Shown: positions 37,361 to 61,317 of the stretch, in pieces
Layout: each line of letters opens with the position of its first letter
Position numbering within the stretch: the first letter of the stretch is position 1
From: Cyanophora paradoxa CCMP329
Taxonomy: Eukaryota > Plantae > Glaucophyta
DNA: 64,000 bases
Direction: 5' to 3'
Assembly: GCA_004431415.1 (NCBI GenBank)
Contig: QPMI01000144.1
Location: forward strand, 1 to 64,000
Made by a program: the position numbers and the translations under genes
Notes under the pieces: generated by a model
Seen by the model: the letters and a program-made list of their open reading frames with translations, nothing else
The model's database searches: none
Told to the model about the DNA's origin: nothing

Positions 37361-39307
37361 CTACAGAATTATGCGAACGCGGTCTCGGATGCAGGCGCGG
37401 CAGTCGGGGCACTCCTCGACCCGCGCGGCGCAGAGCTCGCACAGTCGCGTGTGGCCGCAGGGGCGCAGGGAGACGCCGCGGGGCCGGTCCATGCACACGG
37501 TGCAGCGCTCGGCCTCGACCTGCGCCGCCGCCTCCGCCGCGAGGCGCTGCGCGAGGGCGCCGGCCTCGAGCAGGCCGGCGGCCACTGCCGCGAGCCGCCC
37601 GGGAGGCAGCTCGCGCATGCTGTGCTCCGCGAAGAGGCGCAGAGCCGCCTCGAGGCTCGCGATCGGGACGCCGCGAGAATTCAGAGGCCCACGGCCAGCG
37701 GCGTCAAGCGGGGGAGGGCCGTTGACGTCGACGTCGGCCACGGCGCGCTCCGCAGCGTCCATCGCCTCCCGCTGCCGCCGGAGTGCCGCCAGCAGCCCCG
37801 ACCTCGCCTCCTCGCCCCGCCGCCTCGCCTCGGCCTCCCTCCGCGAGACCGCCGCCTCCGCCTCCGCCGCCTCCGCCGCAGCTCTGGCGACCGCGGCCGC
37901 AGCGGCCGCCTCGGCCGCGGCGAGCTGTTCCGCCGCTGCAGTCGCCGCAGCGGCAGCCTCTGCTCGCTCCTGCGCAAGCAGCGCCTCCACCTGCCCCCGC
38001 TGCGCCCGTTCTACCTCCAGAAGCTGCGCCAGCGCGTCGCGCTCCGCCCACAGCTGCTCCGCTTCGGCCTGCGCCCGCTGCAGCTCCTCCTGGAGCTGGA
38101 GCTGCTGCTGCCTGGCCGTCTCCGCCGACGCAGGAGGGGGCGACGTGGGCTTGGAGACGAGAGGGGGCCTGTACGGTGGGGGACGATCACGGTCACGAGC
38201 TCGAGGAAGTGCAGGCTGTTGCGCGCTGGCTGCAGCTGCAGGCAGGGCTGTTCGCAATTGAGAGCCAGGCTCACGGTTGCGAATGTTCTCCGAATTCGAA
38301 GTCTGTGCTGGCAGTTCAAACTCCGCCAATTGATCATTCGCATCGTGCACGTGAGGCCTAGGCTCGCGATCGATCGATATTGCGAGCTCCGCCTCTGCTC
38401 CCAGTGGCTGCACACGCGGTACGGATGTTGAGATTTTTCGAAATCGCAAAGGCTGCAAAGTAAAGGTTTGTGCAGCCTACAGCTATAGCTAGGCCTGCGA
38501 ACCATGCGAGTGGCCATGGATGTCGACGTGGGGATAGAGCACTCGATCGCGAGCTGAAGATCACGATCGACATCGATGCGATCATGTTCATCGAATTCAT
38601 GATCAGAAGTGCGATTCGGATTCGAATTCGGCTGCTGCGTGGCAAACTGTTAAAGTTATACTTTAGCTTTATTTTTAATTTTTACTTCTTCGAAATTACG
38701 CCACCTTCGCTTTGGACTTCTTCTTCTTGGTCGTCCTTGCAATTGAATATGAAGAGCTTGCGCATGCGACGTCGACTGCAGCTGGCGCGCTCTGCTCTAG
38801 ATCTTTTGCCCCCTGGCCTGTCCATGGGCTCAATGTCGGCTCACTCTGCTTAGAGATGGCAATTGTTAATCTCAGGATCGATATTAAGAGGAGCTCGGGT
38901 ATATCATACCAGCATCGATGTCGATGACGTGCACGTGGTAGCACCTGTACATGTGCATGTATAGCATCCGGGATCCGCGACCGTGCACGTATACGTAGTC
39001 AGCGATCATGTATGCACACGCATAGTGTTTTAATTTATATGTTAGAAAAAAATGCGCCGGCGAGTCGCGCACGTCTGCAGCTGTTGACGTTCGACATGGC
39101 GAGAATTGCATCAGCATGTACTTTCCTCACTGTTTTTTGGCGTATCCTGGCAGAGAGAGCCGGACCGTTGCAACACGACTGCAGCATTTTCAAACACTCC
39201 ACGTCGGACATTTGGGTCACGACATTTGCGAGCTGTCTTTGTGTGTCTTCTGGCAGAGGCAACCTTGGACCTACTTTAAGCCTTGAAAGGTTCTTGGGCT
39301 CCCTCAT
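37361..39307 (-). CDS. Host coiled-coil protein with C-terminal C3HC4 RING finger (upstream exons uncertain)
   Basis: CTVCMDRPRGVSLRPCGHTRLCELCAARVEECPDCR preceded by an Ala/Glu coiled coil. Confidence 0.8.
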
Positions 39308-39400
39308 TAATGTCTGAATTTAATGCAAACGCGCGCATTTCAGCGTTTCAAAATCAAAAAAAGATTTTGCACACGTGCACGTGTGCAAGTATACGTCTAC

Positions 39401-39683
39401 TGTTGTAAAGGGGAGGACCCCCCCCCAAACCAGACCGCCCCCAAAGTCTGGTTTTACCTTCAGGGATCCACCCCTTCTAGCGTCATCAATTAGCGATTTT
39501 TCTGAGATCAGTTAGGCGTGTTAATTAGGCGTGATGATGGACGAGCATGGATTTGAAGATTGGAAGGCGTGAGGGCGAGTGCATTTGGATCTGAGTAGAG
39601 AATATCGAGGGAGCTCTATCTAGGCGCTATCAGGGGCGACCTCCCAAGCGGTACGGGCCCCCAGAGCGGTCTGGTGCGGCCTC
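39401..39683 (+). repeat. Left TIR of element 2 (outer end inferred at TGTTGT, 39401)
   Basis: 39422-39683 is the reverse complement of 63739-64000. Confidence 0.92.
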
Positions 39684-39773
39684 TGGAGATGAGAAACGTC
39701 GAGATTAATATGTACAGTACTAGTGGACCTATAGCTAACTGCTGAACGTAACTGCTCCTCACACAAATCAGAG

Positions 39774-40458
39774 TCATATATCAGAGTCAGAGTCAGAGTC
39801 TGAACTGTTCCTTACTGAGTCAGAGTCAGAGCCATAGAGTATTCTATAGCTAATCATTTGATAGCTATAGAATAATTCAAGATCAATGCGCCACCGACAT
39901 GGAGGGCAGTAATCTGATATATCGATATATAGGTGTCAGAAAGCATTTCAGCAAAGAATGATATATAGTCATTATATAAGTAAACGCACATTTGTGGCGG
40001 TCGGGCACGTCCGCATCCTGTAGAGGACGAGAGTCTGCACACTCGCAGCAGCAGGGCATACAACCGGACTTGACAAGGGCGCATGCTGCCTTTTCGCCGT
40101 AACGGTGAATCTTGCGCGACGGCTCGCACACGTTCATTCTTGCTTCGACGCGCCAGCGGCACGGAGGGCAGTAATCTGATAGATTTTATTAGGCAAGGCA
40201 CAAATTGTACTAAGTGTACGTAATTGCACACGCACACATATGGTAGCGAGAAGGGATGCTAGAACGTATACTAGAATCCATGCACTCGCAACAGCAGGGC
40301 AAACAACCGTACTTTACAAGGGCGCATGTGGATTCGAAATTGAGCTTGTGGGACGGCTCGCACAGGAAGCTGGTAATGTGAAGGCAAATCTCTTCTGGAA
40401 ACGGCAGAACCTCAGTCAACAGCTGTGCAACTTCTGTGACGGTTGCCGATCGCGACAT
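39774..40458 (-). CDS. F-box-like protein with two Cys/His repeats; exons 40458-40236, 40175-39990, 39913-39774
   Basis: LPFPEEICLHITSFL; removing two GTGCGT..ATCAG introns gives one open frame with two CEPS..CALVK.GC.PCCCEC..H.YYCPPCRWR units. Confidence 0.8.
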
Positions 40459-41753
40459 GGCCCAGTGGTCTACTAGGCCCGGGCTAGCGCTAGTACGACT
40501 CTGTAGTAGAGTCTGTACGAGTAGGCTACGCCGCTACTAGGCTACTTACTACTACTAAGTTAGCCGCTAGTAGCCCGCTACTATAGTACGCCGCGACCGC
40601 GACTTGCCAAGTTGCCAAGTTGGCGAGTGTGATAGCTGAAAGCCGCTGAGCACGCCTTTTATACTACGGTTGTGTTTCTTTATTCAGAAAGAAAGATAAT
40701 AATTGCAATTTGGCCGGCTTAAGAAGGTTCCATCAAGTTCTGCTACTTCATATAACAAAATTCGCATTTAACATAAAAGAATTAAATTCTGGGTCCCGAA
40801 GGTTCCAGCTGCCGAGTCAGACGTGGCAGCTTGCCATTGGCCAACGTGGCAGCTCGCCATTGGCCAACTTCAAGAATTGTGCAATTAGCAAAATGAGTTA
40901 TATTCGTATTTGTTTGCGCCATGATATTGAAAAACAGTACAATTGTAAGATTTGTCTATAGCAATTCTCAATTCTATTGCTGAAGTTCTAGCAATTCTCA
41001 ATTCTCTACCTGCCAGGCTGTTGCTGCAACTTCAAATTTCAGGCTTGCTAGCATGCTGGCCTAGCTAGCGCCGCCGTCAAGGCCGACGTACTACTGTAGG
41101 CGTAGTTTTTTAGCCGTTGTAAATAATTCGGCAATTTAGTATGACGGCAATTGCTTTGGGGGTAGGTAAATGCTCAGCCCGCCATAGAGCAGAAATCTGG
41201 ATTCGGCAATTTAATACCACGGCAATTCCGGTTTTGGACAAATTCGGCAATTTTACTACGCGGCAATTTAACTACGCCTAAAGTAGACTACTAGCTATAG
41301 CGCGGTACTAGCGCCGCTAGCTATAGCGGCTAGCGTATTATAATTACATTTGTACATCAAGTCGAGCTGATGTTAATTTGATGCGGATCGGAGTCATGGG
41401 AAAGTTTGCAATTGACTCATTGACTCAGTGATGGCTATCATAGTATTTGAAGCCGCCGCCGTCGACGTCAGTAGGCCTGCACCGCGCGCGACTCAGCTCG
41501 AGAGTCAGAGGCTCAGAGCTAGCGACGCTCAGGCTACTAGGCTAACCCATTAATTAGTACAGCTAGCGCTAGCGCAGCGCCACGCACGTTTGATTTTGAT
41601 AGCTTCCATTTCAACTTCTTCCTTCAGCTTGAGCACGCGACTGCAGATCGCGTCGAGATGTTGCATGCTACTATCGTGCTCTTGCTGGCTCTGCGCAAGC
41701 GCCGCGAGCGTTAGTGCATCGGACTCGCCGACGCCAGCGCTAGTCGCGCTAGT

Positions 41754-41957
41754 CTATCTCCTCACCATATTGTGACTCTTGAGCTCGAGATCATGTCTGA
41801 TTTGCCGCATTCCTGCAGCCATGCTGCTCAAATCCTCGAAAAGGGCCGCAAACATCTGCTCGCTAATTTCTGCTCGCATCGAAACTCGTATGTCGTCGAG
41901 GCGCCGGCGCTTGTTCGACATAGCGTTCTCAAGGCTGTGCTCGGTGTTGTTGGCCAT
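41754..41957 (-). CDS. Small hypothetical coiled-coil protein with NLS-like KRRR (may extend via frameshift)
   Basis: 67-aa ATG ORF. Confidence 0.35.
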   Translation of the reverse strand: MANNTEHSLENAMSNKRRRLDDIRVSMRAEISEQMFAALFEDLSSMAAGMRQIRHDLELKSHNMVRR

Positions 41958-42456
41958 TGGATTTGGGGTCTGTACGCTCGCAAAGCTTGCTGCGCACGCG
42001 TGTACTCTTCTTTTGCTAGCTCTATTGCCTGCTCTGAGCGTCCGGATCCTGATTTATCTGCCCGGTCTAATCTGGCCTTCGCGTTTTTGCAGTCTTTCCT
42101 CAGCCGTGCCTTCTCCGGGTGCTCCGCCTTTTTCCACTTTGCAGTGCGCTCCTTTCCGGGGACTGGCGGCGGCCGCGGCGCTGCAAGGCGCTGGTGCCGG
42201 GCTGGACCGCTTACTAGTTTAACTGAGCTTGCCGGTGCCGCCAGCCTGGCCTAAGAGTCTAGGACTTCCCGGGCCGAAGCTTCGAGGTTTTCCACCGACT
42301 TTCTTTAATTGGCTGAAAAGAAAGAAAGAGAGAAAACACGAAAAAACGTGAAGAAACGAGAAACAGTCAAAAACCAATTGCAATTCGAAAAAAGTCACGA
42401 GTCTCAAAAAAACAACATATTGAACGTGTACCGTCACTACCGTGACATCCGTATCC

Positions 42457-42515
42457 GACGTACGGCGGGTGTGACGGACGTACGGCGGGTGTGACGGACG
42501 TACGGCGGGTGTGAC
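42457..42515. repeat. Three tandem 20-bp repeats GACGTACGGCGGGTGTGACG (degenerate copies at ~42615-42655)
   Basis: Read directly from the sequence. Confidence 0.9.
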
Positions 42516-42817
42516 ACTGTGACAGTCGACGTCAGGCCGCTAGTACTAGCCTAGTAGGCCCGCTACACCCGCTAGCGCTAGCGCTAACCTAGCCTAGTAG
42601 CTGGTACGGCTTGCGGACGTTCGGCGGTGTGACGGACGTACGGCGAGGGTGACGCGGGCGGTCTGCAGTGACACTGTGCAATCGGCTAGCACAGCAGTAG
42701 CGCTAGCGCTAGCGCTAGCTATATATATATAGGTCCTAGCAAGTCTTAGAGATAGCTTCACGATCTAGCGCTACAGCTCCGGCCGCGGATCGAGAGCGCC
42801 ACAATCACTAAGCCAAG

Positions 42818-43486
42818 ATGCCGTCGCACAATCCAACAGCGTACCGGCGTGCTCTGAAAGAGGGGCTGAAGCATCTATGTTCGACGGCACTGGAGCGCCA
42901 AGTAATAAGCCAGCGCGATTATGCGTATTTTGAGCTATTTTTCAGCAGCAACTCGAGGAAAAGTCTTAACTCGATTAACATGTGCATACTATCAATTCAC
43001 AGAATCATGCGCGACGCAAATCAGCAGTACGTGCAAATGATGGAGATAGCTGGGTCGTCCCCTGAGCAAGCTCAACTGCGGGCTGACATCGAACGGGCTT
43101 ATCAACGAGTTGAAGAAGCTGATCTGACTGCGTTTTCCCTAGCGAGTATCAAAACGTTCTCGCACCAGGCTGATTCGATTTGCCCAATTCCAGATGTAGG
43201 CGTTGAGGATTCACAGTCTATCGCTAATGCGTCAGAGACAGCGAGCACCGTACTTGGCGAAGCCGAAGAGCCAGCTGCAGCGGAGGGCATAGCCAGCGCC
43301 GGCCAAGGCGAAAATGACGAGAATAATAATTCAGCACCGGCTGATGCAGCTGCTGAGATCGAACAGGGCTCTGATCGTGAGGAGATCGACGCCACGCGTA
43401 CGGCTCTAGATCTTGATCCAGTGGTTGATGGCTCCGTTCCAGGGGGCTTGGGGTTGGAGGGAGCGAAGTGGTCCGGCTATAGCTAG
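42818..43486 (+). CDS. Hypothetical viral protein with acidic tail
   Basis: 222-aa intronless ATG ORF upstream of pPolB. Confidence 0.65.
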   Translation: MPSHNPTAYRRALKEGLKHLCSTALERQVISQRDYAYFELFFSSNSRKSLNSINMCILSIHRIMRDANQQYVQMMEIAGSSPEQAQLRADIERAYQRVEEADLTAFSLASIKTFSHQADSICPIPDVGVEDSQSIANASETASTVLGEAEEPAAAEGIASAGQGENDENNNSAPADAAAEIEQGSDREEIDATRTALDLDPVVDGSVPGGLGLEGAKWSGYS

Positions 43487-43850
43487 CGCTAGCACCGACG
43501 CCAGGCGAGCTCAGCAGCCTCGCCGGCAGTTGACAGCAGAGGAGCGCGCAGAGCGACTACTGAAGCGTAAGCGTAAGGCGCAGCACGAGCTCTGCCTAAA
43601 ATTGAAAGCAGCTGGGGTTAGAGTGGCTGTGGTGGGAATCAGACGAGAAGATGGCGGCCACTATTTCACAGAGCTCGTCCGACTTCAGAGCAGTTTACAA
43701 GATGGTCACAAATCGTGAACACGATCATGCTGGCCAGCCCTTGACCTCTCTTGCATGGCTTAGAGGTTTCCTGCATTCTATCTAGCAGTCAGAGATTGTT
43801 GCGCTGAAATCCGAAATTAATTTCAGTCCCTCTTCTTGGAAGCGCATGCA

Positions 43851-46800
43851 ATGGCCAGCACTGCAGCACTTAAGGCCGAACTTAGAAATTTAGCGACAGA
43901 ACTTTATGATCGTGGATATGTTCACGGGACATTTCGAAACAAACTGATGCGCCTAGCGGACGCTAGCAGCGGGACCTGGGGCCAAACGATTCGCAAATAT
44001 ATAGCGACACTGCTGCGACTGCGGAGCACGATTCGCCCAGCACGCCGCTTATATGAAGGCCAGCTCGCAGGCCATTTTGGCGCAATTGCAGCAGCTCGCG
44101 CAAACGCGGTTCAGGCCGAGGAGGCGATACTGGAGGACGTTCCTAATATATTTCAGGATGTTGAAGAAATTCCCGTGCCACAAGATCTGGATGGGGTGCT
44201 CTCTCACAGGCACCACCGCTATCCGAATTTACTATTCGATAAGCACGTATATGCAATCGAGCCCACCTACGATCCGGAGTCCGTAAAGAATTTAACTATC
44301 GACGTTCTGGGTCAACTGGGCATTGCAGAGATGATAGGGCGATTTGTGTTAATCCGGTTCCGCTTTGACAATAATCACATGTATACGACCCAGCTGATCC
44401 AAATAAGACAGAACGGGTTGCAGAGTTTGACTGAGAGTTTAGATGAGCGGATTGCGCAGTGGATGTCAGCACAAATGTCATATCAGGAGGACGATTTCTG
44501 GACGGTAACATCGATCGAGGTGTTAATTGCAGACAACGCGGCTGGCGCCCTAGGCAATGTTCCGAAATTGCCATTTTATCATAGGACAGTCGATAAGCTA
44601 TACTGCCCGATGTCCCCAGCGAATGACTGCGTGCTCGAATGCTTTGAGTACGTTAAATTAAATCCACGCGGACTGAGCCTGAAGACAGTAATCGAAAAGC
44701 TGGCAAAGGCACCCTATGCATCTATTCGAGAGCGGCTCGGACTGGGAAAGGGCATGATATCTCTTGATCGCAGCACAGTAGAAGCAATCTGCGGATTTTA
44801 TTCGATAGATACAACTGTGACGGAGTGGGCAAACACGAAATTCAAGGAGCTTTTTCGAACCCAGTTTGATTATTCGAAGCGTGCAATTCTCTGCAACATT
44901 GATGGGCATTGCTACCTGATTAAAAAGGAGGCGACACTAGGTCTGGAGCGGTGCCCTTGCTGCGGAAAGATGTTTGATTTGGCAACGCATGTGGAGCAAT
45001 GCACGTTCTGCAATAACTGCAAACGCGCGTACGACCCCAGAAAAGATCATTCATCAGAGTGCCAGGAGATGACGCGCCGTCAAAACGTGATCGGGCGGCA
45101 AATCAAGCCCTGCAAACCGGAGACAGAATTTACAGCGTTGGACAGCGTTGTCTGCGCGGATTTTGAAACGTTTGCTGCCAACGGCAAGACGCACGTTCCA
45201 TATGCTGTCAGCTATTGCACGATTGAAAAAGGGGAGGTCTCGCCATGCGAGTTAATTTATGGTGAGCAAACGTTGGACTTGTTCATGCGCTGGCTTGAGC
45301 GCCGCAGCGAAAAGACGACGTTGGTGTTCTACAATGGGTCTGGCTTTGACTATATATTTGTCTACAAATGGCTCGTGTTAAATCGACCGAATACAGCATT
45401 AAACGTTCTGCGGTCGAACGGCAAGATCAAGAATATGTCGTGGAAAACGGCTGCAGGCGGGCCTATAAGTACGTTTGATCCGTGCCTGCACATCCAGGCT
45501 TCGCTCAAACAGGCCTGCAAGGACTACGGCTGCACTAACGTAAAGGGAGATTTTGATCATAGCAAGATTAAAACGTGGGAGGACGTTGAGCGCTTTAAAT
45601 CTGAATGGGAGCCGTACGTGGAAGACGACGTTAAGGCAATGACAGAGCTTTACATTAAATATTCGACAGCAGTCTTCGATCTGTACGGCTTAAACGTGAA
45701 CACAACGCAAACAACCACAGCTTCGGCAATGGCGTTCCAGATTCATCGGCAGACGTTGATCAATCCAATTTCGCTACCGACCTACAAGGATGATCAGGTG
45801 CTGCGCCAGGCAATATATGGTGGACGGTGTCTCCCATTTAAACGCAAATTCGTCTCATCGGGCCCGGATGATTATTTAGTCGACCTGGATGTTGTAAGCT
45901 TGTATCCGACGGCTATGTACGAGAATTGGTTTCCAACTGGAAAGTACAAGCATATTACGTCGCCCGATGCGCTGGACAGATTCTGCAAGATATTACAATC
46001 GAATCAGCGTTCGTTGATGTTTATTGCGTGCGTGGACGTGACAATTCCGCAAAATCTGCTGCTCTCTCCGCTGCCACGGCACGAATCTAATCTAGGCTGG
46101 TCTAATCTCAAGCCAATTGAGCGCGGTTGGTATACGTCAGTCGATATTAATCGTGCAATTAAACTGGGATGCGAGGTGACGAAGGTGCGCGAGGTCTACC
46201 TGTTTGACGGTAAAGATCAGATGTTTAAGACCTACATGGAGCGGATGTACTGCCAGAAAGCTAGATCTCGCAAGGGAACAGCTCCGTATGCGACGTCAAA
46301 GATTTACATGAATGGCCTTTACGGTAAATATTGCCAGCGGCCTGTGATCACAACCTCGGATCTGGTCACATCATACAAGCGATTTCGAGAAATTCAGCGA
46401 TCAGCGCAGATCACAGACATTTCGATCGAATCAGACACGCGGATGTTTGTCACGTACGAGATTGAGGAGTCCAAGCGTGATAGAGCTGTCACTAAACCGT
46501 GCTTTATTGGCGCATTTATTCTGTCATATTCGCGGGAGATCATGGACAGGTTTCTGATTGAAATAGGCGCATACTGGAGCATCGATGCAATGCCGTTTTA
46601 TACTGATACGGACTCTTTGATTGTCCATCGAAAATACGCTGATCTGCTGCGGGCAAAAGGTTATATGAAGCCAGCATATGATATAGCGACGGCAACAGAT
46701 GCGGACATTTGCAGGCAGGAACTAGGGAAACTTGACTGTGACATTAAAGGGCGGATTGTGGAAGCGTACTTCATTGGGCCGAAGCTTTATACGTGTTCAT

Positions 46801-47176
46801 TTGTACGTGACAGCGACGCGCAGCTTGATCTGCATGTACGCGCAAAGGGGATTCCGCAATCGTGGATCCAGGAGCACTGGCTACCAGACGAACCAGAGGC
46901 GAGGAAAGGGGCCCTCGACCGCAGGATCGCTCTGGATGCTTACAGGTGCATGCTCGAGGATCCCACGTACCAACCCAAATGCACAATCGAATCAAAGCTG
47001 GCCCGTGTTTATAAACCGAACGGGCGGCAACGGAGAGCGGAATCAGCTTTAGTTCCATGATCCAAATTCCGTTCGCTCGACAGCTGAACAAGTCGCAGTA
47101 TACAAAGCGCAAGATAATTTCGGACGAATACTATAGTAGCGTCCCCCATGAGTACCGCGCAGGCGAGCCGAATTAA
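43851..47176 (+). CDS. Protein-primed family B DNA polymerase with intact exonuclease motifs (frameshift near 47020)
   Basis: ADFETF, YNGSGFDY, YVEDDV, IYGGR, DVVSLYPTAM, KIYMNGLYGKY, YTDTDS, PKLY, AKGI; alternative frame ends KRKII..SVPHEY. Confidence 0.95.
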
Positions 47177-48334
47177 GCAAGCTTATTACGATCCGGAAAC
47201 TGGCTTTCAGTCTGCGGCGAGGATAGCTAAGCGGCTCAATTTACCGCTATCAAGAGTGCAGGACGTACTTTCAAAATTGACGACTGCGCAGCGTTTTGCG
47301 AAACCTGTAAAGGAAAAGCCATCGACCAGCATAATTTACGGGGAGCCCGAAAAGTACTACGAAGTCGATCTGATTGATGTGACCCGTACGCGAGAACTAA
47401 TCGAGGGATTACTTTTATTATGAACGGTATCGATGTGACGACGCGCAAAGCGTATAGCATCCCTATGAAGACGAAATCGGAAAGCACTCTGCTAGCCAGT
47501 TTGAAGAAATTGATTGATGCACTCCCCTCGAAGCCGGACGTCATTCAGACAGATCAGGAGTTCAAAGGAACCGCAGCAACAATGCTAGCGAGTATGGGCA
47601 TCAAGCATAATGCAGTGGAGGCGCATCGCCCGCAAGCAAACGGCAAAATAGAGAGATTTAATGGTACGCTTAAGCGCATCATTGCAAAGTACATGGATGC
47701 GTACGACACGGACAGATATATCGATAAGCTGCCTGCTTTCTTGCGCAATTATAATTCGTCAGAGCATAGGTCAATTGGTACGTCGCCGAACGCTGCAGCA
47801 GAAAATCCGAAGGAGACAATTGCACGCAACGACTACCAGAGAGAAGCGTACGAGCAACAGCACTATTTTGCCCAAGCGGAATTTAAGGTAGGCGATCGGG
47901 TGCGAGTGCAGCTAGAGCGGCAGCGTTTCGACAAGTCTTCAAAGCCGACGTATTCAAAAGAAATCTACACGATCACGGAGATAGGTGGCTTTGGGCCGCT
48001 GCTCAAATTTACGCTTTCGGGCTACGACAAAGCGGTGACCTACCAGCGACTATTGAAAGTAGCGGCAGATTCAGAGGAACGTCGTGCGGGCAATGCAGCA
48101 CAGCGGGCACAGCAGCGCAGGAAGAAAGAGATTAATCTAATGCAAGAGAATCTAGACAAGAGTGATATAGAGAGAGCGCGCAAACTCGAGCGTTTGCAGA
48201 AGCAATTGTTGACTGCAGGTAAAGAGAAGCTGAACCCAGGAGGGGCAACACAGAGATGGTATTCGTCGTTCCAGAATAAAACTGCAGCGTACTCAGCCCC
48301 TGGCAATACGCGAACTCTCCGCCCACGCGCGTGA
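47148..48334 (+). CDS. Retroviral-like (rve) integrase, 1-nt frameshift near 47380
   Basis: YYDPETG, VDLID / NRGITFIMNGIDV, QTDQEF, KIERFNGTLK, YNSSEHRSIGTSP, FKVGDRVRV. Confidence 0.92.
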
Positions 48335-48400
48335 AAAAGAAAGGGAGCCATCTTGGCTTCCTCCTTCTTTCGCTCCCCTCTTTTTACTAATTGCCGGCCA

Positions 48401-48676
48401 TTAGAGAGCTATAACAATTGTTTGTTGGAGGGACTCTAGCAGAGCTAACTTTTCGTAGATTCGATTGCGATAGCGGCGATTGGCCTCCAGATGGCCCTCA
48501 CTGTTATTGCGTTGATATTTCAAACTGGCTTCGATGTGACGTCGCCGGTAATCAGGATCTTCATTGTACCTGCGCCGATGGCTCTCCGCTCGCTTGGCCT
48601 TCCGTGCCGCAGCGATTTCAGGGGTGACAACAATTGGCTTGCGGCCTGGGCGCTTTGGCGATGATTCGGCATCCAT
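48401..48676 (-). CDS. Small basic protein with AT-hook-like KRPGRKP
   Basis: Resembles 8255-8482 (RYNEDPDYRR). Confidence 0.65.
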   Translation of the reverse strand: MDAESSPKRPGRKPIVVTPEIAAARKAKRAESHRRRYNEDPDYRRRHIEASLKYQRNNSEGHLEANRRYRNRIYEKLALLESLQQTIVIAL

Positions 48677-49663: not shown

Positions 49664-49672
49664 CTTTTTCTC

Positions 49673-50416
49673 TTATGGTAAGATTTTAAAACGCTTCTTT
49701 TTGGGATGAACAGGCGTTGAATTTTCTTTCTTAGGCTCTTCTTGTCTTAGCCATTTAGTAAAACGAAAGCTCTTATCTTCAACGGCTTTATCAACGTACC
49801 AGGCCGTATCATACTTAGTTCCATCCAGGACTAGGCACTGATAATCATGCGCCCAAGTCTCGAACAAGGCGATGAACTTATCTTTTGGGAGATGACTGAA
49901 CTCTCTATAGATCGCCTCGAGCTCGGTATGATTAGAATAACTAAAGAAAAAGCAGTAATCGCTGTTTGATCTTATAGATTGACTAAGAGCTGTTAGCTTT
50001 TGCGTCATAAGAATCGTACTTATATTAAAATGGCGGCCCTGCGTAAAAAGTCGATTTACAGCCTTGCTGTTTCGCAGATCAACAGTTTCAGAGGCGGCAA
50101 CTAGATCGTCCAATACAAGCAATATCTGCGGTGCTTTCTCTTTGTTTTCGATCAACTTTCGCTGTGAATCAATGATTTCTGCAACTATGGCGGGTTGAAA
50201 ATCGTCGTAAAGCTCTTTAGTTATTGCAGAGTATTCACCATTGAATTTGGTGGCAGTGAAAACGACGACTCGGTTGATCTTTGGATACAGCAGTCGAAGC
50301 AGATGCTTTGTGCAATAGAACGATTTGCCGCTATTGGACTTCGATATAAATAGGGCTTTGAAAGGGACCCTCATGTCTCCCGGCTGGAACTGTGCGAGCT
50401 CTTGAGACTGATCCAT
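49673..50416 (-). CDS. A32/FtsK-HerA-like packaging ATPase
   Basis: SKSNSGKS, LLVLDD, QGRHFNIS, IRSNSDY. Confidence 0.92.
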   Translation of the reverse strand: MDQSQELAQFQPGDMRVPFKALFISKSNSGKSFYCTKHLLRLLYPKINRVVVFTATKFNGEYSAITKELYDDFQPAIVAEIIDSQRKLIENKEKAPQILLVLDDLVAASETVDLRNSKAVNRLFTQGRHFNISTILMTQKLTALSQSIRSNSDYCFFFSYSNHTELEAIYREFSHLPKDKFIALFETWAHDYQCLVLDGTKYDTAWYVDKAVEDKSFRFTKWLRQEEPKKENSTPVHPKKKRFKILP

Positions 50417-50478
50417 CAAAAAATTAACTACCGAGATTCGCAGGCGCAGCCAAGGCAGCTTGTCTGACGACACTTCGA

Positions 50479-51867
50479 CTAGAGGTTCACCTTGCGAAGG
50501 CCCGCAGCATCAACAATTAGGACAGTGTGCAGGAGAGCGCGAACCTGGACGTAAATCTTGTTGTTTGCATCGTAAGCGGCAGGATTCATGATATTCAGGA
50601 AGCAGCTGCTGCTGTTGGTGAGATCCACGAAACCAGTTTGAGCTGCATTTCGGATCGATTTATCCCCACTAATGCAAAATGGCAATCCACTCAGGACATA
50701 TCTGTTAAGAGGCGCGTCGAGATTTGAGCACTTGAACACATCAGCAATGAGCTCAGCACCTTGCAAGAGTGGCACAGGCTCGTTAGAATAAAGTCGCTGG
50801 CCATTCAATTCGCAGGAAATAGTTATGTCACGAGCATTGGCCTCAGTTTTAAGGACACTGTGTTTTCCATCAGTTTGGTTCATATTTGTCTGCTTGCGAA
50901 TGCTAACAAAAAGGCCATAGCAGAGCCCACTGATCTGCGACAGATTAATCCGTGTAGGTGCACCAGCCCCTGCATAGGTGATCGAGTCAGCATCAACCCA
51001 GCCAACCTCAGTGGCAGGAATGGCGATTCCAGACGATTTGACTTTTTCAATAACCTGTGCAAAAGTAGCCTCATCAACGTTGATGCAGTGAGCTATAATC
51101 TTTGGATTCGATAGCTCGGGATTGGCAGGAGTGACAGTGAGGACATTGGGGGTTATATTCTGGCCAATGTTTGCAGGGGATGCAGCGGCAGCTCCTACGC
51201 TCCCAAGTCCATCATCTTTAGAGGCATCACCGTTTGCGGCATATTCTGCTACAAACCTACCACCATAGCTGGTCTCAACGAAGCCCTGGGCACGGTCACG
51301 GAACCAAACCTCCACAGACACCTCGCCCGATAGCGCACCAATTGGAAGCACTGAGCCCTCCCAGGGACAGGGGATCTTTACACTGAAAATACCTCCAGCA
51401 CGATTGCTCCCCTGAGGTGGTGTTCCATGAAGCCAGCCACCGGATCGGTACTTCTTTTTAAGCTGAGCATCATCATTGAAAATCAGAGCGCTGTGAACAA
51501 GCCAGTCCTCGGGGACAATGTAGCTGTAGGAAGCATATTTGATTTCGATTCGCTTTACGAGAGCACCAACCGATCGCAAATAACCAGTGCGAACCAGGTC
51601 AGTGTCACCAGTAAATGCGGTCAGCTCTGGAAGGGTAAACTGGAGTTCGAGCCCCTGAAGGAAATTGTAGCGGGGCAGGAAATAAGTAACCCTCTTTCCG
51701 AAGCAGTCTCCATAGTCATTGCTTGGGTTGACAACAACACGCACAGGCTTTGTTTGGCTGGTTAGACCTAACATAAGCTCATTGTTCATGAAAAAGTCCT
51801 TAGCTTCCTGCGGAGTTGTCAGGAGCTCTTTGAGACCGAGTCGCTGCAAGTTTTGGGTAACATCCAT
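50479..51867 (-). CDS. Major capsid protein (predicted double jelly-roll)
   Basis: 462 aa, intact, colinear homolog of 10553-11926. Confidence 0.85.
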   Translation of the reverse strand: MDVTQNLQRLGLKELLTTPQEAKDFFMNNELMLGLTSQTKPVRVVVNPSNDYGDCFGKRVTYFLPRYNFLQGLELQFTLPELTAFTGDTDLVRTGYLRSVGALVKRIEIKYASYSYIVPEDWLVHSALIFNDDAQLKKKYRSGGWLHGTPPQGSNRAGGIFSVKIPCPWEGSVLPIGALSGEVSVEVWFRDRAQGFVETSYGGRFVAEYAANGDASKDDGLGSVGAAAASPANIGQNITPNVLTVTPANPELSNPKIIAHCINVDEATFAQVIEKVKSSGIAIPATEVGWVDADSITYAGAGAPTRINLSQISGLCYGLFVSIRKQTNMNQTDGKHSVLKTEANARDITISCELNGQRLYSNEPVPLLQGAELIADVFKCSNLDAPLNRYVLSGLPFCISGDKSIRNAAQTGFVDLTNSSSCFLNIMNPAAYDANNKIYVQVRALLHTVLIVDAAGLRKVNL

Positions 51868-51911
51868 CGAAGTATATAATTGCAGTGAAAGAAAATAATT
51901 TGGGACTTAGC

Positions 51912-52868
51912 TCAATTTGACGAATTGATCCAAGGATATGTCTTCGATCTTTTCTGGAGCTGAAGCTTGGCGAGCTCGTAGACAACATCACCATTGGGTT
52001 CATCTGGGCCATAACGAATTTCGAGTATAAATGAGACAGGACCTCCATTTAAATCAGCAATTCGCTGCATAAAATCGTAAATCTCAATAGTCACAGAGTA
52101 GAGGTCCAGCTTTGAATAAATATACTTGTACAAAGGATGTGCTTCAGTTGAATCATAGTATGCTATCTCGCCTGGACGAAGGACGCTTGGAATGCTCAGC
52201 TTTGAGAAGAAGCCAGGTATTGACGTGTTCGGCATACTGACAAGGTCACCAATTTCAGGAATGCGTAGGAGCACATGATCATCGGGAGTGACATCAGGCT
52301 CATAAGCGCCTGCTATATATTCAGTATTTATAGATAATGTCTTTGACCGAATCGGTAGAATTGATCGCAGCCCTAGAAGCTTTGCAGTTCGCTGAGCCCT
52401 TGCAACGGCCTGGTAGTTTCTGACTTCCCGCCCACCCTGGTTCGTTGGCAACATCAGAGCAATAAAGAACTCGAAGTTAGCTGTGAACCCTATTAATTTG
52501 ATCGCTGAATTATACGTGCACGTGATACCTGTTCCCGTCAACCTTTCGTTTATCTCTGTCACAAGCGAGGTGACGTCGTAATTTCCAGGTGGAATTGCAA
52601 TGTTATTCCACGCTCCAAAGCCGGCCTGAGGTGGGTCGGGTCCTTCATTAGTAGGATCATATTTGCACCAATATATGTAGGTGTCAAAGACCAAATCCTC
52701 TGCTGGATCGAGTACATCAATTGTGCTCATTGTGTTGGGGATCTCAGCTGATACCAAGCGCACGGCTTTCACATCCTGATAAACTTTAGGCAGTCTTACT
52801 TTAAATTTCGAGGTGGATGTCAGCTCCTCCGCTTGGTGACTTGCAATGCAGACGTAGTCCGTAGGCAT
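51912..52868 (-). CDS. Minor capsid (penton-like) protein 1
   Basis: VKAVRLVSAEIPNT, IPPGNYDVTSLVTEIN, DLNGGPVSFILEI. Confidence 0.85.
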   Translation of the reverse strand: MPTDYVCIASHQAEELTSTSKFKVRLPKVYQDVKAVRLVSAEIPNTMSTIDVLDPAEDLVFDTYIYWCKYDPTNEGPDPPQAGFGAWNNIAIPPGNYDVTSLVTEINERLTGTGITCTYNSAIKLIGFTANFEFFIALMLPTNQGGREVRNYQAVARAQRTAKLLGLRSILPIRSKTLSINTEYIAGAYEPDVTPDDHVLLRIPEIGDLVSMPNTSIPGFFSKLSIPSVLRPGEIAYYDSTEAHPLYKYIYSKLDLYSVTIEIYDFMQRIADLNGGPVSFILEIRYGPDEPNGDVVYELAKLQLQKRSKTYPWINSSN

Positions 52869-52895
52869 CTTTTTTATATCAGTTAGAGAATAAAA

Positions 52896-56003: not shown

Positions 56004-59000
56004 ATGTCTTATCTCCTGAGAAAGCCTGTGCCTCTGCGACGGCCACCAGAATCGCCTGAAGAGGATAGGCTCATTAATATTCGCGTTTTCGGAAGCATTT
56101 TGGCTGACTACAATGCTGACAAAGATATACACCAGACCGAGTTTAATCGCCCAGCTGCGTTAATTCTGCGCAACTCACATGTTGGCGCCCCGGACATTGC
56201 ACAGAGATTTTGTCTAGGTCCAGCTGAGAACTATGTTGCTGAAATAATTGGATCCAGGGCGTTGCCGCGGCACCTGCGAATTGCCTCCTCAGGCACTGTT
56301 TCCAAGTATGATTCTGGTAGATTAATCTTTAGGCTCCAAAATGATAGAGGGGTCCACACATCAGCTCTACGCCTAATTGATGAATCCAATGCTGTCACAA
56401 ACAAGACTGCGGCTCACATTACAGGGCGAATTCTCCTTGGCGAAGATGCAGGAATATCAGTGCTAGCATCACAAATCCAGCCGTTTCCCTGGGATTTACT
56501 TTTTACAGCTGCACGAGAAGCAAATATTTTATACGGTTTTGATGTAAATCAAATCGATACCGAGCCAGCCACCAGGTTAGATATTCCTGGATGCACCTTT
56601 GGCTCGATCCTGATGGAAGCTGATAGGCACCTGCTCCCGGCGTTGCATGACAGCTACGATCTTGGGCTCCGCACCAGGCAGTGGCGAAATATTCACGGCA
56701 CGTCGATTTACCAAGATGGAAAAAGGTCATCACTGAACCGGAGATAATAAACATTTTCAACTACTACTTCGGACCTATTGTCCCTATACCACCTATACCA
56801 CCTCTTCCAGGGCTACCGAAGCCAAACCCTGAAGGGCCAGGTCGTGAGAGAGTTGCAGATGAAACAATTCCATTCGGGCAAAATATTATTTCGTGGGAGG
56901 CTGTCAGGAATCGCCCCGTGATAGAACGCTATAAGCATCCGCATGAAGAATACCTGCCGCCTGATATTGAAGTTTTCCCGCTCGAAATGTACACAGAGCC
57001 TGAAGAGCAGTTACTTCCTGATGGCTTAGATGTTCAAGAACTCCAGTACGAGCAACCTGTGATTCCACATGAGCAGCTGCTTCCAGACGGCTTTGAACCT
57101 ATTCTCTTCCCTTGGAGTTCACCGTAGATTGGGAATCAATAACCAATAAACCTGGGAGTTTTCCACCAGAGGAACACAGGCATGATTGGGATGAAATCGA
57201 TAATAAACCGTTGCGGTTTCCCCCAGAGGATCACAGACATGATTGGGCTGAGATCGATAATAAGCCTTTACGGTTCCCCCCAGAGGATCATAGACACGAC
57301 TGGGGTGACCTTGATAATGTTCCGCTTGAATTTCCACCGGAAGATCACAGACACATTTGGAGCGAAATAGATGAGCAGCCCGAGTTCGCAAAGATTGAGC
57401 TTCCTGTCACACTAGCTGTCTCTCTCTACAAATCAATTAACACCCCTGAAAGGTTATATTTGAATGACCACTATGTCCACAGGCAGGGAATTCGTGCTAA
57501 CACTGACATGTCAGGCTCTTTGTTTGTAAGGATTCCCCGTGGAATGGAGATAGTTGCTGCTGGCGGGAATATTGGTTTGCAGGACACGTTCCCAAGTATT
57601 TATGTCACAAACTACTACGCCTCTGACATCGAAATGACATCTGTTCTACCTTTTTTGCCTTCACTGCCGTTGGATCCTCTCTCCCATGCTGATTTTCATT
57701 CTGCAATCCAGATTAATGTAACAGATGTTAGCGATTTAGATTCATCGAGACCGAAATTAGTTTTTAGCCGTGAACGCCTTTTACCCAATGCTCTGATAGG
57801 AAATCGAGATGATTATAAGAAATGCGAAATAGCATGGATAAAAACGAACTATAACGGTGGAGTTGGGGAGGGCATTTTAGAAATTAATCAGAGGGCAGCA
57901 GCAAAAAACATTCACAACGAGACTATATCCAGAGTGGTCACAGAGGATTACCTTCAAGCCCAAAATTATGTAGATGAAACAGAGCTCGCTTTAGTTATTG
58001 CAGGTCTAGCTGTGACAGGGAATTACCTGCCCTTGACAGGAGGAACTATTGACGGAACAGTGACTGCTGACAACTTTTTTGTTCACACTGAAAGTGATCA
58101 GACCTTCCCTGTGGTTCACCCAGGAGCTGAGTACGAGATTCCTATTGATCCTGCTATTATGCCCATAAAAATCGATCTCCCTTCCGATTATGTTGGACGG
58201 GGTGAACTGAAAATAATCTCTTTCACAGGAGATTATAATGATCTTTTAAACAAGCCTACTGCTGAGAACCTTCACCCTGTTGCCTATTCAGGAAATTTCC
58301 TCCATTTAAATAATAGGGCACACACCCACACAAAGGCTGAGATCACAGATTTTGCACACACTCACACGAAGTCCCAAATAACAGATTTTGCACACACCCA
58401 TACCCGAGCAGATATAACTAATTTCGCTCACACCCATGTTAAATCAGAGATAACTGATCTTGGGAATGTTGCTTATGTTGGTCATACCCATACCAAGGCA
58501 GAGATTACAGACCTGGGAAATGTATCGTACGTTGGTCATACCCATGATTGGAATACTGATATCTATAACAAACCGGCGTTGTTCTCAGGCAACTACAACG
58601 ATCTGACCAATAGACCCACTCTTGATCCCTTCACAGCCACCACTATCAGAGCCAATAATACAATGTATGTAGGATCAGGTCAGATTGTAGAACCAGCAGG
58701 GCCTATGTTTGAAGAAACATGGTTCTTCCACAATTCGCAGAATTACTTTGATAAAACCTTACTTGTTCGTGGAAATGCCTATGCAAGAAATTTCTATGCT
58801 ATGAACCCCTCAAATAATGCGACCATCAGTCGATGTATTACAGAGGCAGATCTTTCCAGTCAACTCAATGCATATTTTAATGGGAAAATTCAAGCAGGGA
58901 AGTATGTTTACACTACTCCCGTTTTAGATTACAATAATCTCTATGTGTTCAATCTAACTATCTATTTTACCAATGCCTTTGCTTCTCCTCCTGTTGTGAC

Positions 59001-59178
59001 AGCAACAGTAAGGCATGAAGGACAAGATCCAAATTATCAATTAACTCCCGTCGTTTTTACTGTGAACCTGTTGAATGTTTATAGTAACTATTTTACTTGT
59101 GAACTTTTCACTGATCCATATGCAATGATTAATTCATCCAAAACTGTTACAATTCATTACATTGCTGTCGCAATTTAA
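56004..59178 (+). CDS. Long phage-like fibre protein (~1050 aa if the frameshifts near 56725 and 57110 are repaired)
   Basis: YDLGLRTRQWRNIH, (FPPEDHRHDW.EIDNKP)n, YLPLTGGTIDG, (HTHTKAEITDF)n, SGNYNDLTNRP, C-terminal FTNAFASPPVVTAT..IHYIAV. Confidence 0.8.
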
Positions 59179-59197
59179 CTGTTTGGTAATTATAAAG

Positions 59198-60258
59198 ATG
59201 ACATCTGTATTAGAAATCCCGAATTATGAATTAGCAGCCAAATCACTGCATAGCACCTCTCATGAAGTAGTTGATTCTACACCTGGGAATATCTGCACCG
59301 AAACAGCAAGCAATACCTCCTTAACCGAAACCAATATTTTGAGAGTCAAAGAAATACGCTGTGACCGAAATGGAGGCAAGATACGAACTACAGGTATTAT
59401 TATTTCGAATAAAAATCAGGTTCAAGCAGGTCAAGTAGTCCCTGATTCAGCAGTTTATGATAACGTGGGTGGATTCACCACGGCAAAGATCGTAACTTTC
59501 GATAACACAAGCAATAACTCCGCTCTTGTGGTTAAGAGTGGTGGAGCCTATATTGGTGACGGAGCGATTGTAGTGGGGACTGTCACAGCAAATCAATTAA
59601 ACGTGAGTGGTACATGCATTTTCAGTTCTTTGATGACTTTTAACTATGGCCTTTTAGGTAACATAATTTATGGGACTCTTCAGGCATTTCTGAGAGTTCA
59701 AGCACCCGAAATTGGTAGTGGAACAGATTCCAACATGAGCTACAAACGAAATGGTAATGCAATTGTCACTCTTGAAAAAACGACGGTAGCAGAGATAGAG
59801 ATAAACTCATTCACACTTTCCCCAACTTGCTATTTGAAAAGGACTTATTGCCCAAGATTTTGTGTCACAAAACTATTACCTAATCAGGCAGCATCATCCT
59901 CATCATGGTCATCTGGCGTCCGTATTACCTTCACAGTTCCTAATTTCGCTACTTATTATGTCAACAATGAAGGCAACTGGAATGATTCGTATATATTTAC
60001 TGCACCTGTTGCAGGTGTTTACCGGGTTTTTTTCACAGCTCTCAGAATAGATACTCAGACTTCTTATGTGACTATCTTAAAGCTTTCAATAAATGGAATT
60101 GCATCCGATTACGAATTTCAATGTTCATTAACGGGACAAATGGCTATCACATACGAAACTTTACTTACTCTTAACATGGGGACAATGTTGGAGTATTAAA
60201 CTCAACAGGTGTTACCATCACTATTAGCACACGCTGTTACTTGGGTGCTATCTCGTAA
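59198..60258 (+). CDS. Fibre/spike paralog 1 with C1q-like head (frameshift near 60180)
   Basis: Shared N-terminal KEIRCDRNGGKIRTT domain; FTAPVAGVYRV, LNMGDNV. Confidence 0.8.
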
Positions 60259-60291
60259 GTGCTATATAATATTGTCTGTGTAATATAAAGA

Positions 60292-61317
60292 ATGGCTACT
60301 CAAATAGCAGTCCCTGTTTTCTGTTACGCTGCACCGAAAATTCATCAACTCAACCACACTGTAACAGATGCAACTCCGGGTTTTATTTGCACAGAAACAA
60401 CAGGAGCAGATTCATTTTCGCAGAACTCTTTGATTCGATGCAAGGAAATCCGGTGTGATCGCAATGGGGGCAAAGTGAGAACCACAGGTCTCATCGTTTC
60501 GAACAAGAACCAAGTTCAATCAGGACAGATCGTTTCTGATTCCGCAATCTATGATGATGTGGGAGGGTTCACCACACCCAAGATTGTTACGTTTGATAAC
60601 ACAAGTAATAATTCTGCTCTTGTCGTGAAAAGTGGAGGTGCTTACATCGGAGATGGTGCGAGGATTGATGGAAACCTTACAGCTGAGCAACTCACAGTAA
60701 CAGGAACGACTACTTTTAATAACTTAGTAACAGCTAATGGTGGTGTGTATGTCCCTGGTGCTCAGCAGTCTATTGTGACAGCAACTACCAAAATTGTTAC
60801 ACCCGAAGTAGATACAGGTTCGAGCTCAAATCTTCTCTTGAAACGCAATAGTAATCTCATGGCGACACTGGAAGCCAATAGTCTCACTCTAAATACAGGT
60901 TGTTACTTCAAGTACGATTTTCAACCTCGATTCTGCGCACAACTTGGTTACACACATGTTGCTTCAAGTGCTGCTCCTCTGATCAACTGGACAACAGTTT
61001 TTATAGACAACAGAGGTGCCTTCAATACAGGCAATGGAAGATATACAGCTCCTGTTGCAGGACATTACAGATTAACTGTAAATTCTTCCTCAACATCTTC
61101 AACAGCTGTAAGTCTGACTTTGCAGGTAAACGATACTAACCCTGGTGGTCTGACCATCTTCACATCTGGAACTTCAACTACAATTGCAGCGAAACCTCTA
61201 TATATCAACGTTATACTCAATCTTGCTGCCGGAGAATATGTCACAATTGTCACAGGAACAGCTGGTAGTTATGCAAGTCGAACAACATTTACAGCTGAAC
61301 TTCTAAGTATCACATAA
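60292..61317 (+). CDS. Fibre/spike paralog 2 with C1q-like head
   Basis: KEIRCDRNGGKVRTT; FNTGNGRYTAPVAGHYRL, LNLAAGEYVTI. Confidence 0.85.
   Translation: MATQIAVPVFCYAAPKIHQLNHTVTDATPGFICTETTGADSFSQNSLIRCKEIRCDRNGGKVRTTGLIVSNKNQVQSGQIVSDSAIYDDVGGFTTPKIVTFDNTSNNSALVVKSGGAYIGDGARIDGNLTAEQLTVTGTTTFNNLVTANGGVYVPGAQQSIVTATTKIVTPEVDTGSSSNLLLKRNSNLMATLEANSLTLNTGCYFKYDFQPRFCAQLGYTHVASSAAPLINWTTVFIDNRGAFNTGNGRYTAPVAGHYRLTVNSSSTSSTAVSLTLQVNDTNPGGLTIFTSGTSTTIAAKPLYINVILNLAAGEYVTIVTGTAGSYASRTTFTAELLSIT

What the first reader, a model, noticed from the sequence alone, without database searches (positions are those of the whole stretch)
39774..40458. Spliceosomal-intron-containing F-box gene with a duplicated Cys/His domain inside the viral TIRs
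Seen: two introns (40176-40235, 60 nt; 39914-39989, 76 nt), both GTGCGT..ATCAG and phase 1, sit at the same position in two tandem Cys-rich units. Splicing joins three short ORFs into ~182 aa: F-box-like motif, 2x[CEPS..CALVK.GC.PCCCEC..H.YYCPPCRWR], and an SD-rich tail. The donor matches host introns, while other viral genes are intronless. Established: F-box proteins are SCF ubiquitin-ligase adaptors often hijacked by viruses. Inference: a nuclear, host-spliced viral gene that could be expressed from the provirus, with an unfamiliar Zn-binding substrate domain.
Basis: partly seen in the sequence, partly recalled or inferred. Interest (0 to 1): 0.75.

Follow-up and report, generated by a model that had tools for sequence, protein, structure and literature searches.

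The report
Spliced F-box-like gene in algal virus
A virus integrated in the genome of the alga Cyanophora carries, just inside its left end, a small gene with two host-type introns (one seen spliced out, the other likely spliced), whose product likely plugs into the host's protein-destruction machinery, although such protist viruses are usually assumed to lack introns.

Summary
The gene is real. Three exons on the minus strand (40458-39774) give 182 aa; 0 of 500 shuffles reach that length. One contig from a probable RNA run skips intron 2 exactly. Intron 1 is inferred from its twin position; no spliced contig was seen, and one contig reads into it unspliced. The two repeat units are under purifying selection (dN/dS 0.10). 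The gene lies 91 nt inside the left TIR of a pPolB/rve-integrase Polinton-like virus of Cyanophora paradoxa. The gene is also not family-wide: DNA depth is about 4x the flank, versus about 60-120x for the capsid and fibre module, so it is variable-arm cargo. No homologue was found. Closest known: the intron-bearing cargo slot of nematode Mavericks, atadenovirus and nanovirus F-box proteins, and punuivirus latency genes. Verdict: new variant of a known kind.

The parts
40236..40458 (-). Exon 1: start codon, F-box-like motif (about residues 19-50) and most of Cys/His unit 1
   Evidence: Pfam PF12937 E 0.018, residues 21-45; helices 7-17, 21-32, 41-49 in a single-sequence model, pLDDT 65
40176..40235 (-). 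Intron 1, 60 nt, GTGCGT..ATCAG, phase 1, branch-like CTAAT, in-frame stops; splicing inferred
   Evidence: same position as RNA-supported intron 2; one X20 contig reads 40 nt into it unspliced
39990..40175 (-). Exon 2: end of unit 1 (CxxC) and most of unit 2, which opens with a half F-box copy
39914..39989 (-). Intron 2, 76 nt, GTGCGT..ATCAG, phase 1, branch-like CTGAC; seen spliced
   Evidence: X19 contig skips exactly these 76 nt, CT..AC on +, 0 mismatches, depth 3.7
39774..39913 (-). Exon 3: last CxxC of unit 2 and Ser/Asp-rich tail with CK2-type sites, stop codon
   Evidence: X19 contig covers 39805-39913
40657..40663 (-). TATAAAA box 205 nt upstream of the ATG; likely RNA polymerase II promoter (inferred)
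39400..39683 (.). Left terminal inverted repeat of the Polinton-like virus (right arm 63739 to beyond 64000)
   Evidence: 39422-39683, 100%; loose ends at 39399-39400
39684..43850 (.). Variable left arm (cargo slot): this gene plus orphan ORFs near 42250-41553 (-) and 42818-43715 (+); CTAG-rich, 51% GC, low copy
   Evidence: depth 463-585 in X11 outside repeats; composition; ORFs
41091..41286 (.). MITE-like high-copy insert with 26-nt inverted ends, upstream of the gene
   Evidence: summed depth up to about 50,000 in X11
43851..47060 (+). Protein-primed DNA polymerase B, continuous ORF
   Evidence: PF03175 E 2e-50
47148..48334 (+). rve integrase (two ORFs in the window; short-read contigs differ by one letter at 47382)
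   Evidence: PF13683 E 1.4e-8
49673..52868 (-). A32 packaging ATPase, likely major capsid protein (462 aa) and likely minor capsid protein
   Evidence: PF04665 E 2.4e-9; capsid labels inferred from position, size and copy depth; the only homologue found is a Cyanophora paradoxa protein, 65%
57508..61317 (+). Fibre-like genes: PTR x2 + weak H-lectin, and C1q-like proteins
   Evidence: the same PTR-PTR-H_lectin fusion is listed for one C. paradoxa PLV in PMC12220804

Best explanation
This is a spliced accessory gene in the variable left arm of one sub-lineage of an integrated Polinton-like virus of Cyanophora, likely transcribed from the provirus by host RNA polymerase II, whose product likely acts as a small F-box adaptor that would dock on host Skp1 and use two predicted zinc-binding Cys/His units to recruit a host protein for ubiquitination. 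Shown: gene structure, splicing of intron 2, selection on the protein, position and low copy number. Inferred: splicing of intron 1, Pol II promoter, zinc binding, Skp1 binding, and a role while the capsid module is quiet (most likely against a silencing or cell-cycle factor, by analogy only). History, inferred: a one-unit, one-intron gene underwent an internal tandem duplication of about 250 nt that began inside the F-box and carried the intron along.
For: Exact intron-2 junction in run X19 and not in DNA-type runs X3 and X11. 0 of 500 shuffles match the ORF. Over 35 aligned codons of the two units: 20 identical, 9 synonymous only, 6 amino-acid changes, dN/dS 0.10, Fisher p 2.4e-5; all 9 Cys and the His before the intron are kept. 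GTGCG is the commonest donor among machine-called host introns, 15 of 47 and 6 of 15. N-terminal F-box-like match E 0.018, or 0.0034 on a 34-aa piece trimmed after the fact, with helices predicted at 21-32 and 41-49. GC3 0.56 matches pPolB and integrase (0.55), not host genes (0.97, 0.87), so it has long been viral. TATA box and the lowest A+T of 19 start regions (30%, against 70-80% for 10 of the other 18). Analogues: Maverick cargo slot, atadenovirus RH and nanovirus Clink F-box proteins, intron-marked latency genes of punuivirus.
Against: The F-box score is below Pfam's cut-off (15.2 or 17.5 bits against 24.3). Intron 2 rests on one 160-nt contig at depth 3.7 from a run only guessed to be RNA. 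One X20 contig reads into intron 1 unspliced, and one X19 contig crosses the proposed TATA box, so these runs may hold DNA or unprocessed RNA. The dN/dS blocks were chosen for being alignable (35 of about 55 codons per unit), which lowers dN. The host intron calls come from my own script, which favours G.xCG donors and GC-ending codons. The viral acceptor TCAG is rare in the host calls (0 of 47, 1 of 15). No LxCxE motif, and no known substrate-binding domain. No substrate is identified.
Confidence: 0.5

Rival explanations
1. The gene is real and spliced, but its N-terminus is not a working F-box; the product is a two-zinc-finger regulator with an acidic tail that binds chromatin, nucleic acid or a host regulator directly, like the 'Oncoid' proteins found upstream of PolB in related viruses.
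For: Selection is clearest on the Cys/His core, including the half F-box in unit 2 that could not bind Skp1 alone. Paired CxxC, CK2-type sites and a place upstream of PolB match the Oncoid description. F-box score is sub-threshold.
Against: No LxCxE motif. The F-box-like stretch sits at the usual N-terminal place and aligns from the Pro-x-Glu start through the conserved Cys of the profile. No zinc-finger family matched at E up to 10.
Confidence: 0.25
2. It binds Skp1 but has no substrate: a decoy that lowers host SCF activity.
For: Small size (20.8 kDa); intron 1 retention would give an 82-aa F-box-only product, and one unspliced contig exists.
Against: A duplicated and conserved C-terminal unit argues for a specific ligand.
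Confidence: 0.1
3. It is a captured host gene riding as a passenger with no use to the virus; the selection signal predates capture.
For: Present in only a small part of the family; host-type introns and a CTAG-rich, non-core composition of the arm; low RNA cover.
Against: Codon and intron composition are viral, not host-like. No paralogue at 80% or more in DNA run X11 (depth 462.9 at both 88% and 80% likeness). No relative in a protein collection that holds Cyanophora EukProt proteins (word-based, weak). The frame and both splice pairs are intact.
Confidence: 0.13
4. Chance ORF pieces or an assembly artefact.
For: No homologue was found in any collection searched.
Confidence: 0.02

Closest known systems
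Cargo slot of nematode Mavericks (Widen et al., bioRxiv 10.1101/2022.07.12.499685; passages read)
   Same: A 2-5 kb poorly conserved region inside the left TIR with intron-bearing genes, next to intronless core genes; cargo linked to the ubiquitin system.
   Different: Protist PLV, not an animal Maverick; cargo is F-box-like plus Cys/His repeats, not WASP protease or KRMA kinase; no host family or horizontal transfer shown here.
Atadenovirus RH F-box proteins (PMC7551158; passages)
   Same: Small (about 200 aa) F-box-related genes near a genome end of a TIR-bearing, pPolB-type linear DNA virus (the relation of adenoviruses to Polintons is recalled).
   Different: No sequence similarity shown; animal lytic viruses; no tandem Cys/His unit described in the passages read.
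Nanovirus Clink and polerovirus P0 (PMC3588083; passages)
   Same: About 20 kDa viral F-box or F-box-like proteins without WD40 or LRR domains that bind SKP1.
   Different: Clink has LxCxE, absent here; Skp1 binding is shown for them and untested here.
Punuivirus latency genes in Chlamydomonas (bioRxiv 10.64898/2026.10.09.758095; abstract, outline and passages)
   Same: Integrated algal DNA virus with two gene classes: host-like spliced genes and intronless structural genes with a viral promoter.
   Different: Giant virus with 61 of 506 genes spliced and shown expression classes; here a 25-kb PLV with one supported spliced gene and no time course; 'F-box' does not occur in its main text.
Oncoid proteins of adintoviruses and MELD viruses (PMC8502044; passages)
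   Same: Upstream of PolB, paired CxxC, CK2 acceptor sites.
   Different: The defining LxCxE is missing; an F-box-like start instead.
Introner-bearing Maverick-Polinton-like elements of dinoflagellates (PMC11957031; passages)
   Same: Spliceosomal-type introns inside protist Polinton-like proviruses.
   Different: There, transposon-made introns mostly gained after integration; here two small introns made by one internal duplication, in a selected accessory gene.

Membership tests
F-box protein (PF12937/PF00646) | Profile score at or above the curated cut-off | tested here: not met
   15.2 bits on exon 1, 17.5 on a trimmed piece; cut-off 24.3
F-box protein (PF12937/PF00646) | Motif from Pro-x-Glu helix to the conserved Cys, near the N-terminus | tested here: met
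   Residues 21-45 align with profile 5-28 of 47, E 0.018
F-box protein (PF12937/PF00646) | Three-helix F-box fold | tested here: inconclusive
   Single-sequence model, pLDDT 65, helices 7-17, 21-32, 41-49; fold searches not decisive
F-box protein (PF12937/PF00646) | Binds Skp1 through the motif | not testable with these tools
   Needs a pull-down or two-hybrid test with the host Skp1
U2 spliceosomal intron | GT..AG ends, branch-like motif, host-type donor and length | tested here: met
   host calls: median 69 nt, GTGCG commonest
U2 spliceosomal intron | Removed in RNA: intron 2 | tested here: met
   One X19 contig, exact 76-nt skip
U2 spliceosomal intron | Removed in RNA: intron 1 | tested here: inconclusive
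   No spliced contig in X19, X20, X21; one X20 contig reads 40 nt into it
Polinton-like virus | TIRs, pPolB, integrase, A32 ATPase | tested here: met
Polinton-like virus | Double jelly-roll major capsid protein | tested here: inconclusive
   462-aa ORF beside the ATPase; no Pfam, PHROG or PDB match; not folded
Maverick/Polinton in the strict sense | Adenovirus-type protease | tested here: inconclusive
   No protease hit among the element's ORFs scanned; several ORFs are orphans
Maverick-type cargo slot | Inside the left TIR, poorly shared within the family, intron-bearing | tested here: met
Maverick-type cargo slot | Host gene family of origin, or exchange between species | tested here: inconclusive
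   No paralogue at 80% in X11; no whole genome held
Oncoid / Clink type | LxCxE Rb-binding motif | tested here: not met
GATA-type or tesmin/CXC zinc finger (resemblance recalled; GATA spacing also in the abstract start listed) | C-x2-C-x17-20-C-x2-C spacing | tested here: met
   C56-x2-C59-x17-C77-x2-C80 and C117-x2-C120-x18-C139-x2-C142
GATA-type or tesmin/CXC zinc finger (resemblance recalled; GATA spacing also in the abstract start listed) | Family profile match | tested here: inconclusive
   No hit, but each unit is cut by its intron and only single exons could be scanned

The most novel reading that the evidence does not exclude
A 25-kb protist Polinton-like virus has its own host-style latency module: a Pol II-driven, spliced ubiquitin-ligase adaptor with a new tandem zinc-binding substrate domain that acts from the otherwise quiet provirus, for instance to destroy a host silencing factor or a giant-virus protein, and such genes are hidden across protist PLVs because surveys use prokaryotic gene callers.
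Probability: 0.25. Interest if true: 0.75.

Novelty: new variant of a known kind. Interest (0 to 1): 0.52.

Why it matters
Large surveys of protist Polinton-like viruses call genes with MetaGeneMark or Prodigal, one of them stating that endogenous viruses 'do not contain introns' (PMC10120064; PMC12220804), so genes like this one are missed. A spliced gene must be transcribed in the nucleus, while most capsid and fibre genes here have short A+T-rich leaders; that points to two expression programmes in one small virus. The host is a cultured alga, so splicing, Skp1 binding and the substrate can be tested directly, which bears on what integrated PLVs do for or to their hosts while dormant.

Tried and rejected
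Homologue searches, all blank: exon 2 in viral contigs; exon 2 against 106-2000 aa proteins; exon 1 against 1.84 billion representatives, 0 at E 0.001; two-exon alignment in metagenome contigs and against 131-2000 aa proteins; PDB sequences (amyloid precursor hits at E 0.09 or worse are chance); NCBIfam and PHROGs; earlier notes by sequence. All used single exons, each holding only part of a unit, so sensitivity is limited. Motif scans: 11 viral hits, 4 genome hits and 1 viral hit are out-of-frame or unrelated. One metagenome hit, L012, is a 78-aa Cys-rich ORF beside a recombinase-like gene; about 0.5 such hits are expected by my estimate; its part beyond the motif beats shuffles for unit 2 (9 of 5000) but not unit 1 (671 of 5000); kept as a lead only. 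Fold searches: exon 1 gave no match at E 0.001 in PDB or BFVD (best F-box row: a pandoravirus protein at E 1.5) and only generic helical matches, Z up to 5.6; the exon 2 model was too poor (pLDDT 53). Co-folding of residues 1-62 with a stand-in Skp1 from a giant-virus genome bin (L022) gave no verdict: median 0.32 against a mark of 0.34, controls 0.00-0.03. No run is on record as RNA; X21 has no contig on the gene, and RNA-type runs barely cover the core genes, which cannot rank genes. Related free viruses were not found with the capsid or polymerase. The protein atlas gave no answer. The sigma-70 scan is irrelevant for a eukaryote. 'Separate host transposon' was rejected: no own inverted ends around the gene and the same depth as the rest of the arm. 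The other PLV in the window has no copy of the gene. Literature: no paper on an F-box or a spliced accessory gene in a protist PLV turned up in searches, or in the supplements of PMC12220804 and PMC10120064 (one file was cut when stored); bioRxiv supplements could not be seen, and subscription journals are mostly not searched. Passages of 10.64898/2026.10.13.758929, 10.64898/2026.07.28.741278 and PMC12768974 added nothing on this gene.

Full report
Observation. The minus strand of 40458-39774 holds three exons of 223, 186 and 140 nt, split by introns of 60 and 76 nt. Both read GTGCGT...ATCAG, both are phase 1, and both fall at the same codon of two tandem units. Removing both gives 182 aa. Leaving intron 1 in stops the frame at 82 aa; leaving intron 2 in stops it at 171 aa. 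DNA similarity between the two units is high in the exons, falls inside the introns and resumes at the acceptors. None of 500 dinucleotide shuffles gave an ORF this long under the same splice rules. Short-read contigs of runs X3 and X11 span the gene with no other letters, although the window differs from them by single letters elsewhere in the element.

RNA. Of 24 listed runs none is on record as RNA; six are guessed to be, two of which hold part of the stretch. I laid three of the six. In X19 one 160-nt contig joins 39913 to 39990, skipping exactly intron 2, with 51 nt on the short side, no mismatch and depth 3.7; the join is absent from X20, X3 and X11. Intron 1 has no spliced contig. One X20 contig (40196-40373, depth 3) reads 40 nt into it, and one X19 contig (40562-40712) crosses the proposed TATA box, so DNA or unprocessed RNA may be present. 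X21 has nothing on the gene. Intron 1 is therefore inferred from homology with intron 2, its in-frame stops and the restored frame.

Selection. Over 35 ungapped codons that I chose from the two units, 20 are identical, 9 differ silently and 6 change the residue; dN/dS is 0.10 (Fisher p 2.4e-5). All nine Cys and the His before the intron are kept. The choice of blocks lowers dN, but the high share of silent changes still shows a coding sequence under constraint.

Context. The gene ends 91 nt inside the left TIR (39422-39683 equals the reverse complement of 63739-64000). The element encodes pPolB, rve integrase, A32 ATPase, patatin, HNH-AP2 and fibre-like proteins. The 462-aa ORF beside the ATPase is taken as the major capsid protein by position and copy depth only. 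Its single homologue in the protein collection is a Cyanophora paradoxa protein, and the PTR-PTR-H-lectin fusion at 57508 is listed for one C. paradoxa PLV in PMC12220804. The host is thus a glaucophyte alga, as earlier notes said.

Distribution. In DNA-type run X11 the summed contig depth is 114 on the flank, 463 on the gene and 502-505 on the rest of the left arm. At 80% likeness it stays 463 on the gene but rises to about 1,000-1,700 on pPolB, 2,200-2,500 on the integrase, 7,200-10,300 from ATPase to patatin and up to 13,500 on the fibres. Depth is not a copy count, but the pattern is clear: the arm, with this gene, belongs to a few near-identical elements within a much larger mosaic family. 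X3 shows the same ratio of gene to arm (21.6 and 23.1). The gene has no inverted ends of its own, so it is cargo of the virus, not a nested transposon. A MITE-like insert at 41091-41286 breaks the short-read contigs, so the link from gene to pPolB rests on the window assembly and on equal depth.

Host-like signals, viral composition. My script called 47 introns in a host ABC-transporter gene and 15 in a second host gene; GTGCG was the commonest donor (15 of 47, 6 of 15), median length 69 nt in the first gene. The script favours such donors, and some calls skip small exons. The viral introns are A+T-rich (38% and 30% GC against a mean of 81% in the ABC gene and 38-74% in the second gene) and end in TCAG, rare in the host calls. 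GC3 of the gene is 0.56, like pPolB and integrase (0.55), unlike the host models (0.97, 0.87; partly set by the script). A TATAAAA box lies 205 nt upstream. The 30 nt before its ATG are the least A+T-rich of 19 starts examined (30%; 10 of the other 18 are 70-80%, mostly capsid and fibre genes). I read this as a long-resident viral gene kept under host transcription and splicing. The core ORFs are continuous; two gaps on the right are explained by single-letter differences and open frames.

Protein. Pfam gives F-box-like at E 0.018 and 15.2 bits, under the cut-off of 24.3; residues 21-45 match profile positions 5-28. So the start of unit 1 is the second half of the F-box, and the duplication began inside it. 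A single-sequence model of exon 1 has helices at 7-17, 21-32 and 41-49 (pLDDT 65). Each unit has C-x2-C-x17/18-C-x2-C plus further Cys and His, enough for one or two zinc ions (zinc binding inferred). The tail has CK2-type sites; there is no LxCxE. No homologue was found in any search (see Tried and rejected). The whole spliced protein could not be folded or searched outside my scripts, so the fold of a complete unit is open.

Mechanism. Best reading (0.5): a host-spliced F-box adaptor, made from the provirus, that brings a host protein to an SCF ligase through its two Cys/His units. Rivals: a zinc-finger regulator without a working F-box (0.25), a Skp1 decoy (0.1), a passenger (0.13), an artefact (0.02). 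That it is a real spliced gene carried by the virus is about 0.9.

Comparison. It works like the intron-bearing cargo slot inside the left TIR of nematode Mavericks (bioRxiv 10.1101/2022.07.12.499685, passages), like terminal F-box genes of atadenoviruses (PMC7551158, passages) and Clink or P0 (PMC3588083, passages), and like the spliced latency genes of punuivirus (bioRxiv 10.64898/2026.10.09.758095, abstract and passages). It is not shown to be a member of any of these families: it fails the Pfam cut-off and lacks LxCxE. Introns in protist Polinton-like proviruses are known as introners in dinoflagellates (PMC11957031, passages), while a main survey assumes none (PMC10120064, passages). Earlier scan notes report intron-bearing Polintons in animal genomes (untested here). 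My searches found no report of an F-box or a spliced accessory gene in a protist PLV.

Verdict. Observation confirmed; interpretation partly supported; new variant of a known kind; interest 0.52.

Noticed in passing
window 42320-41553 (-): ATG-less open frames (Lys/Arg/Glu-rich, then coiled-coil-like) preceded by a long polypyrimidine run ending in CAG near 42313 and a second possible short intron near 42299-42251; may be a second spliced left-arm gene. No RNA cover.
   Followed up: partly
window 41091-41286: MITE-like element of about 195 nt with 26-nt inverted ends and internal CGGCAATT repeats; very high summed depth, so a large host-wide family inserted in the viral arm.
   Followed up: partly
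window 39399-39565: In X19 and X20 a contig from another locus runs into the TIR on the + strand; in X20 it ends at 39565 with a short A run, so the TIR may end host transcripts at other insertion sites.
   Followed up: no
window 43850-59700: Depth rises in steps from polymerase to integrase to capsid to fibre genes, and some family members lack the HNH-AP2 gene (joint 55378-56105): a strongly mosaic family.
   Followed up: partly
window 1500-15500: A second PLV with D5 helicase, fragmented pPolB and a 457-aa ORF 55% identical to the likely capsid protein of the first; it has no CTAG in 12.5 kb and carries TGTGAC repeat arrays.
   Followed up: partly
window 40794, 41964, 42625, 43441, 43449, 43678, 47031, 47382, 53348, 56719, 57108: Single-letter differences between the window and short-read contigs; several apparent frameshifts in this element are probably assembly errors.
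   Followed up: partly
window 38000-39335: Run X3 covers the element but not this flank, so either the insertion is absent in that sample or single-copy DNA was too thin to assemble.
   Followed up: no
window 25850-33050: Host ABC transporter gene with about 47 or more short, very GC-rich introns, many with GC donors.
   Followed up: partly
L012:10-246: 78-aa Cys-rich ORF beside a tyrosine-recombinase-like gene in a metagenome contig, sharing the unit's first Cys cluster and a later CxxC; likely a chance or analogous zinc finger.
   Followed up: partly
window 42448-42654: Four copies of a 20-29 nt repeat containing GTGTGAC in the left arm, like the arrays of the other PLV; possible origin or regulator sites.
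   Followed up: no
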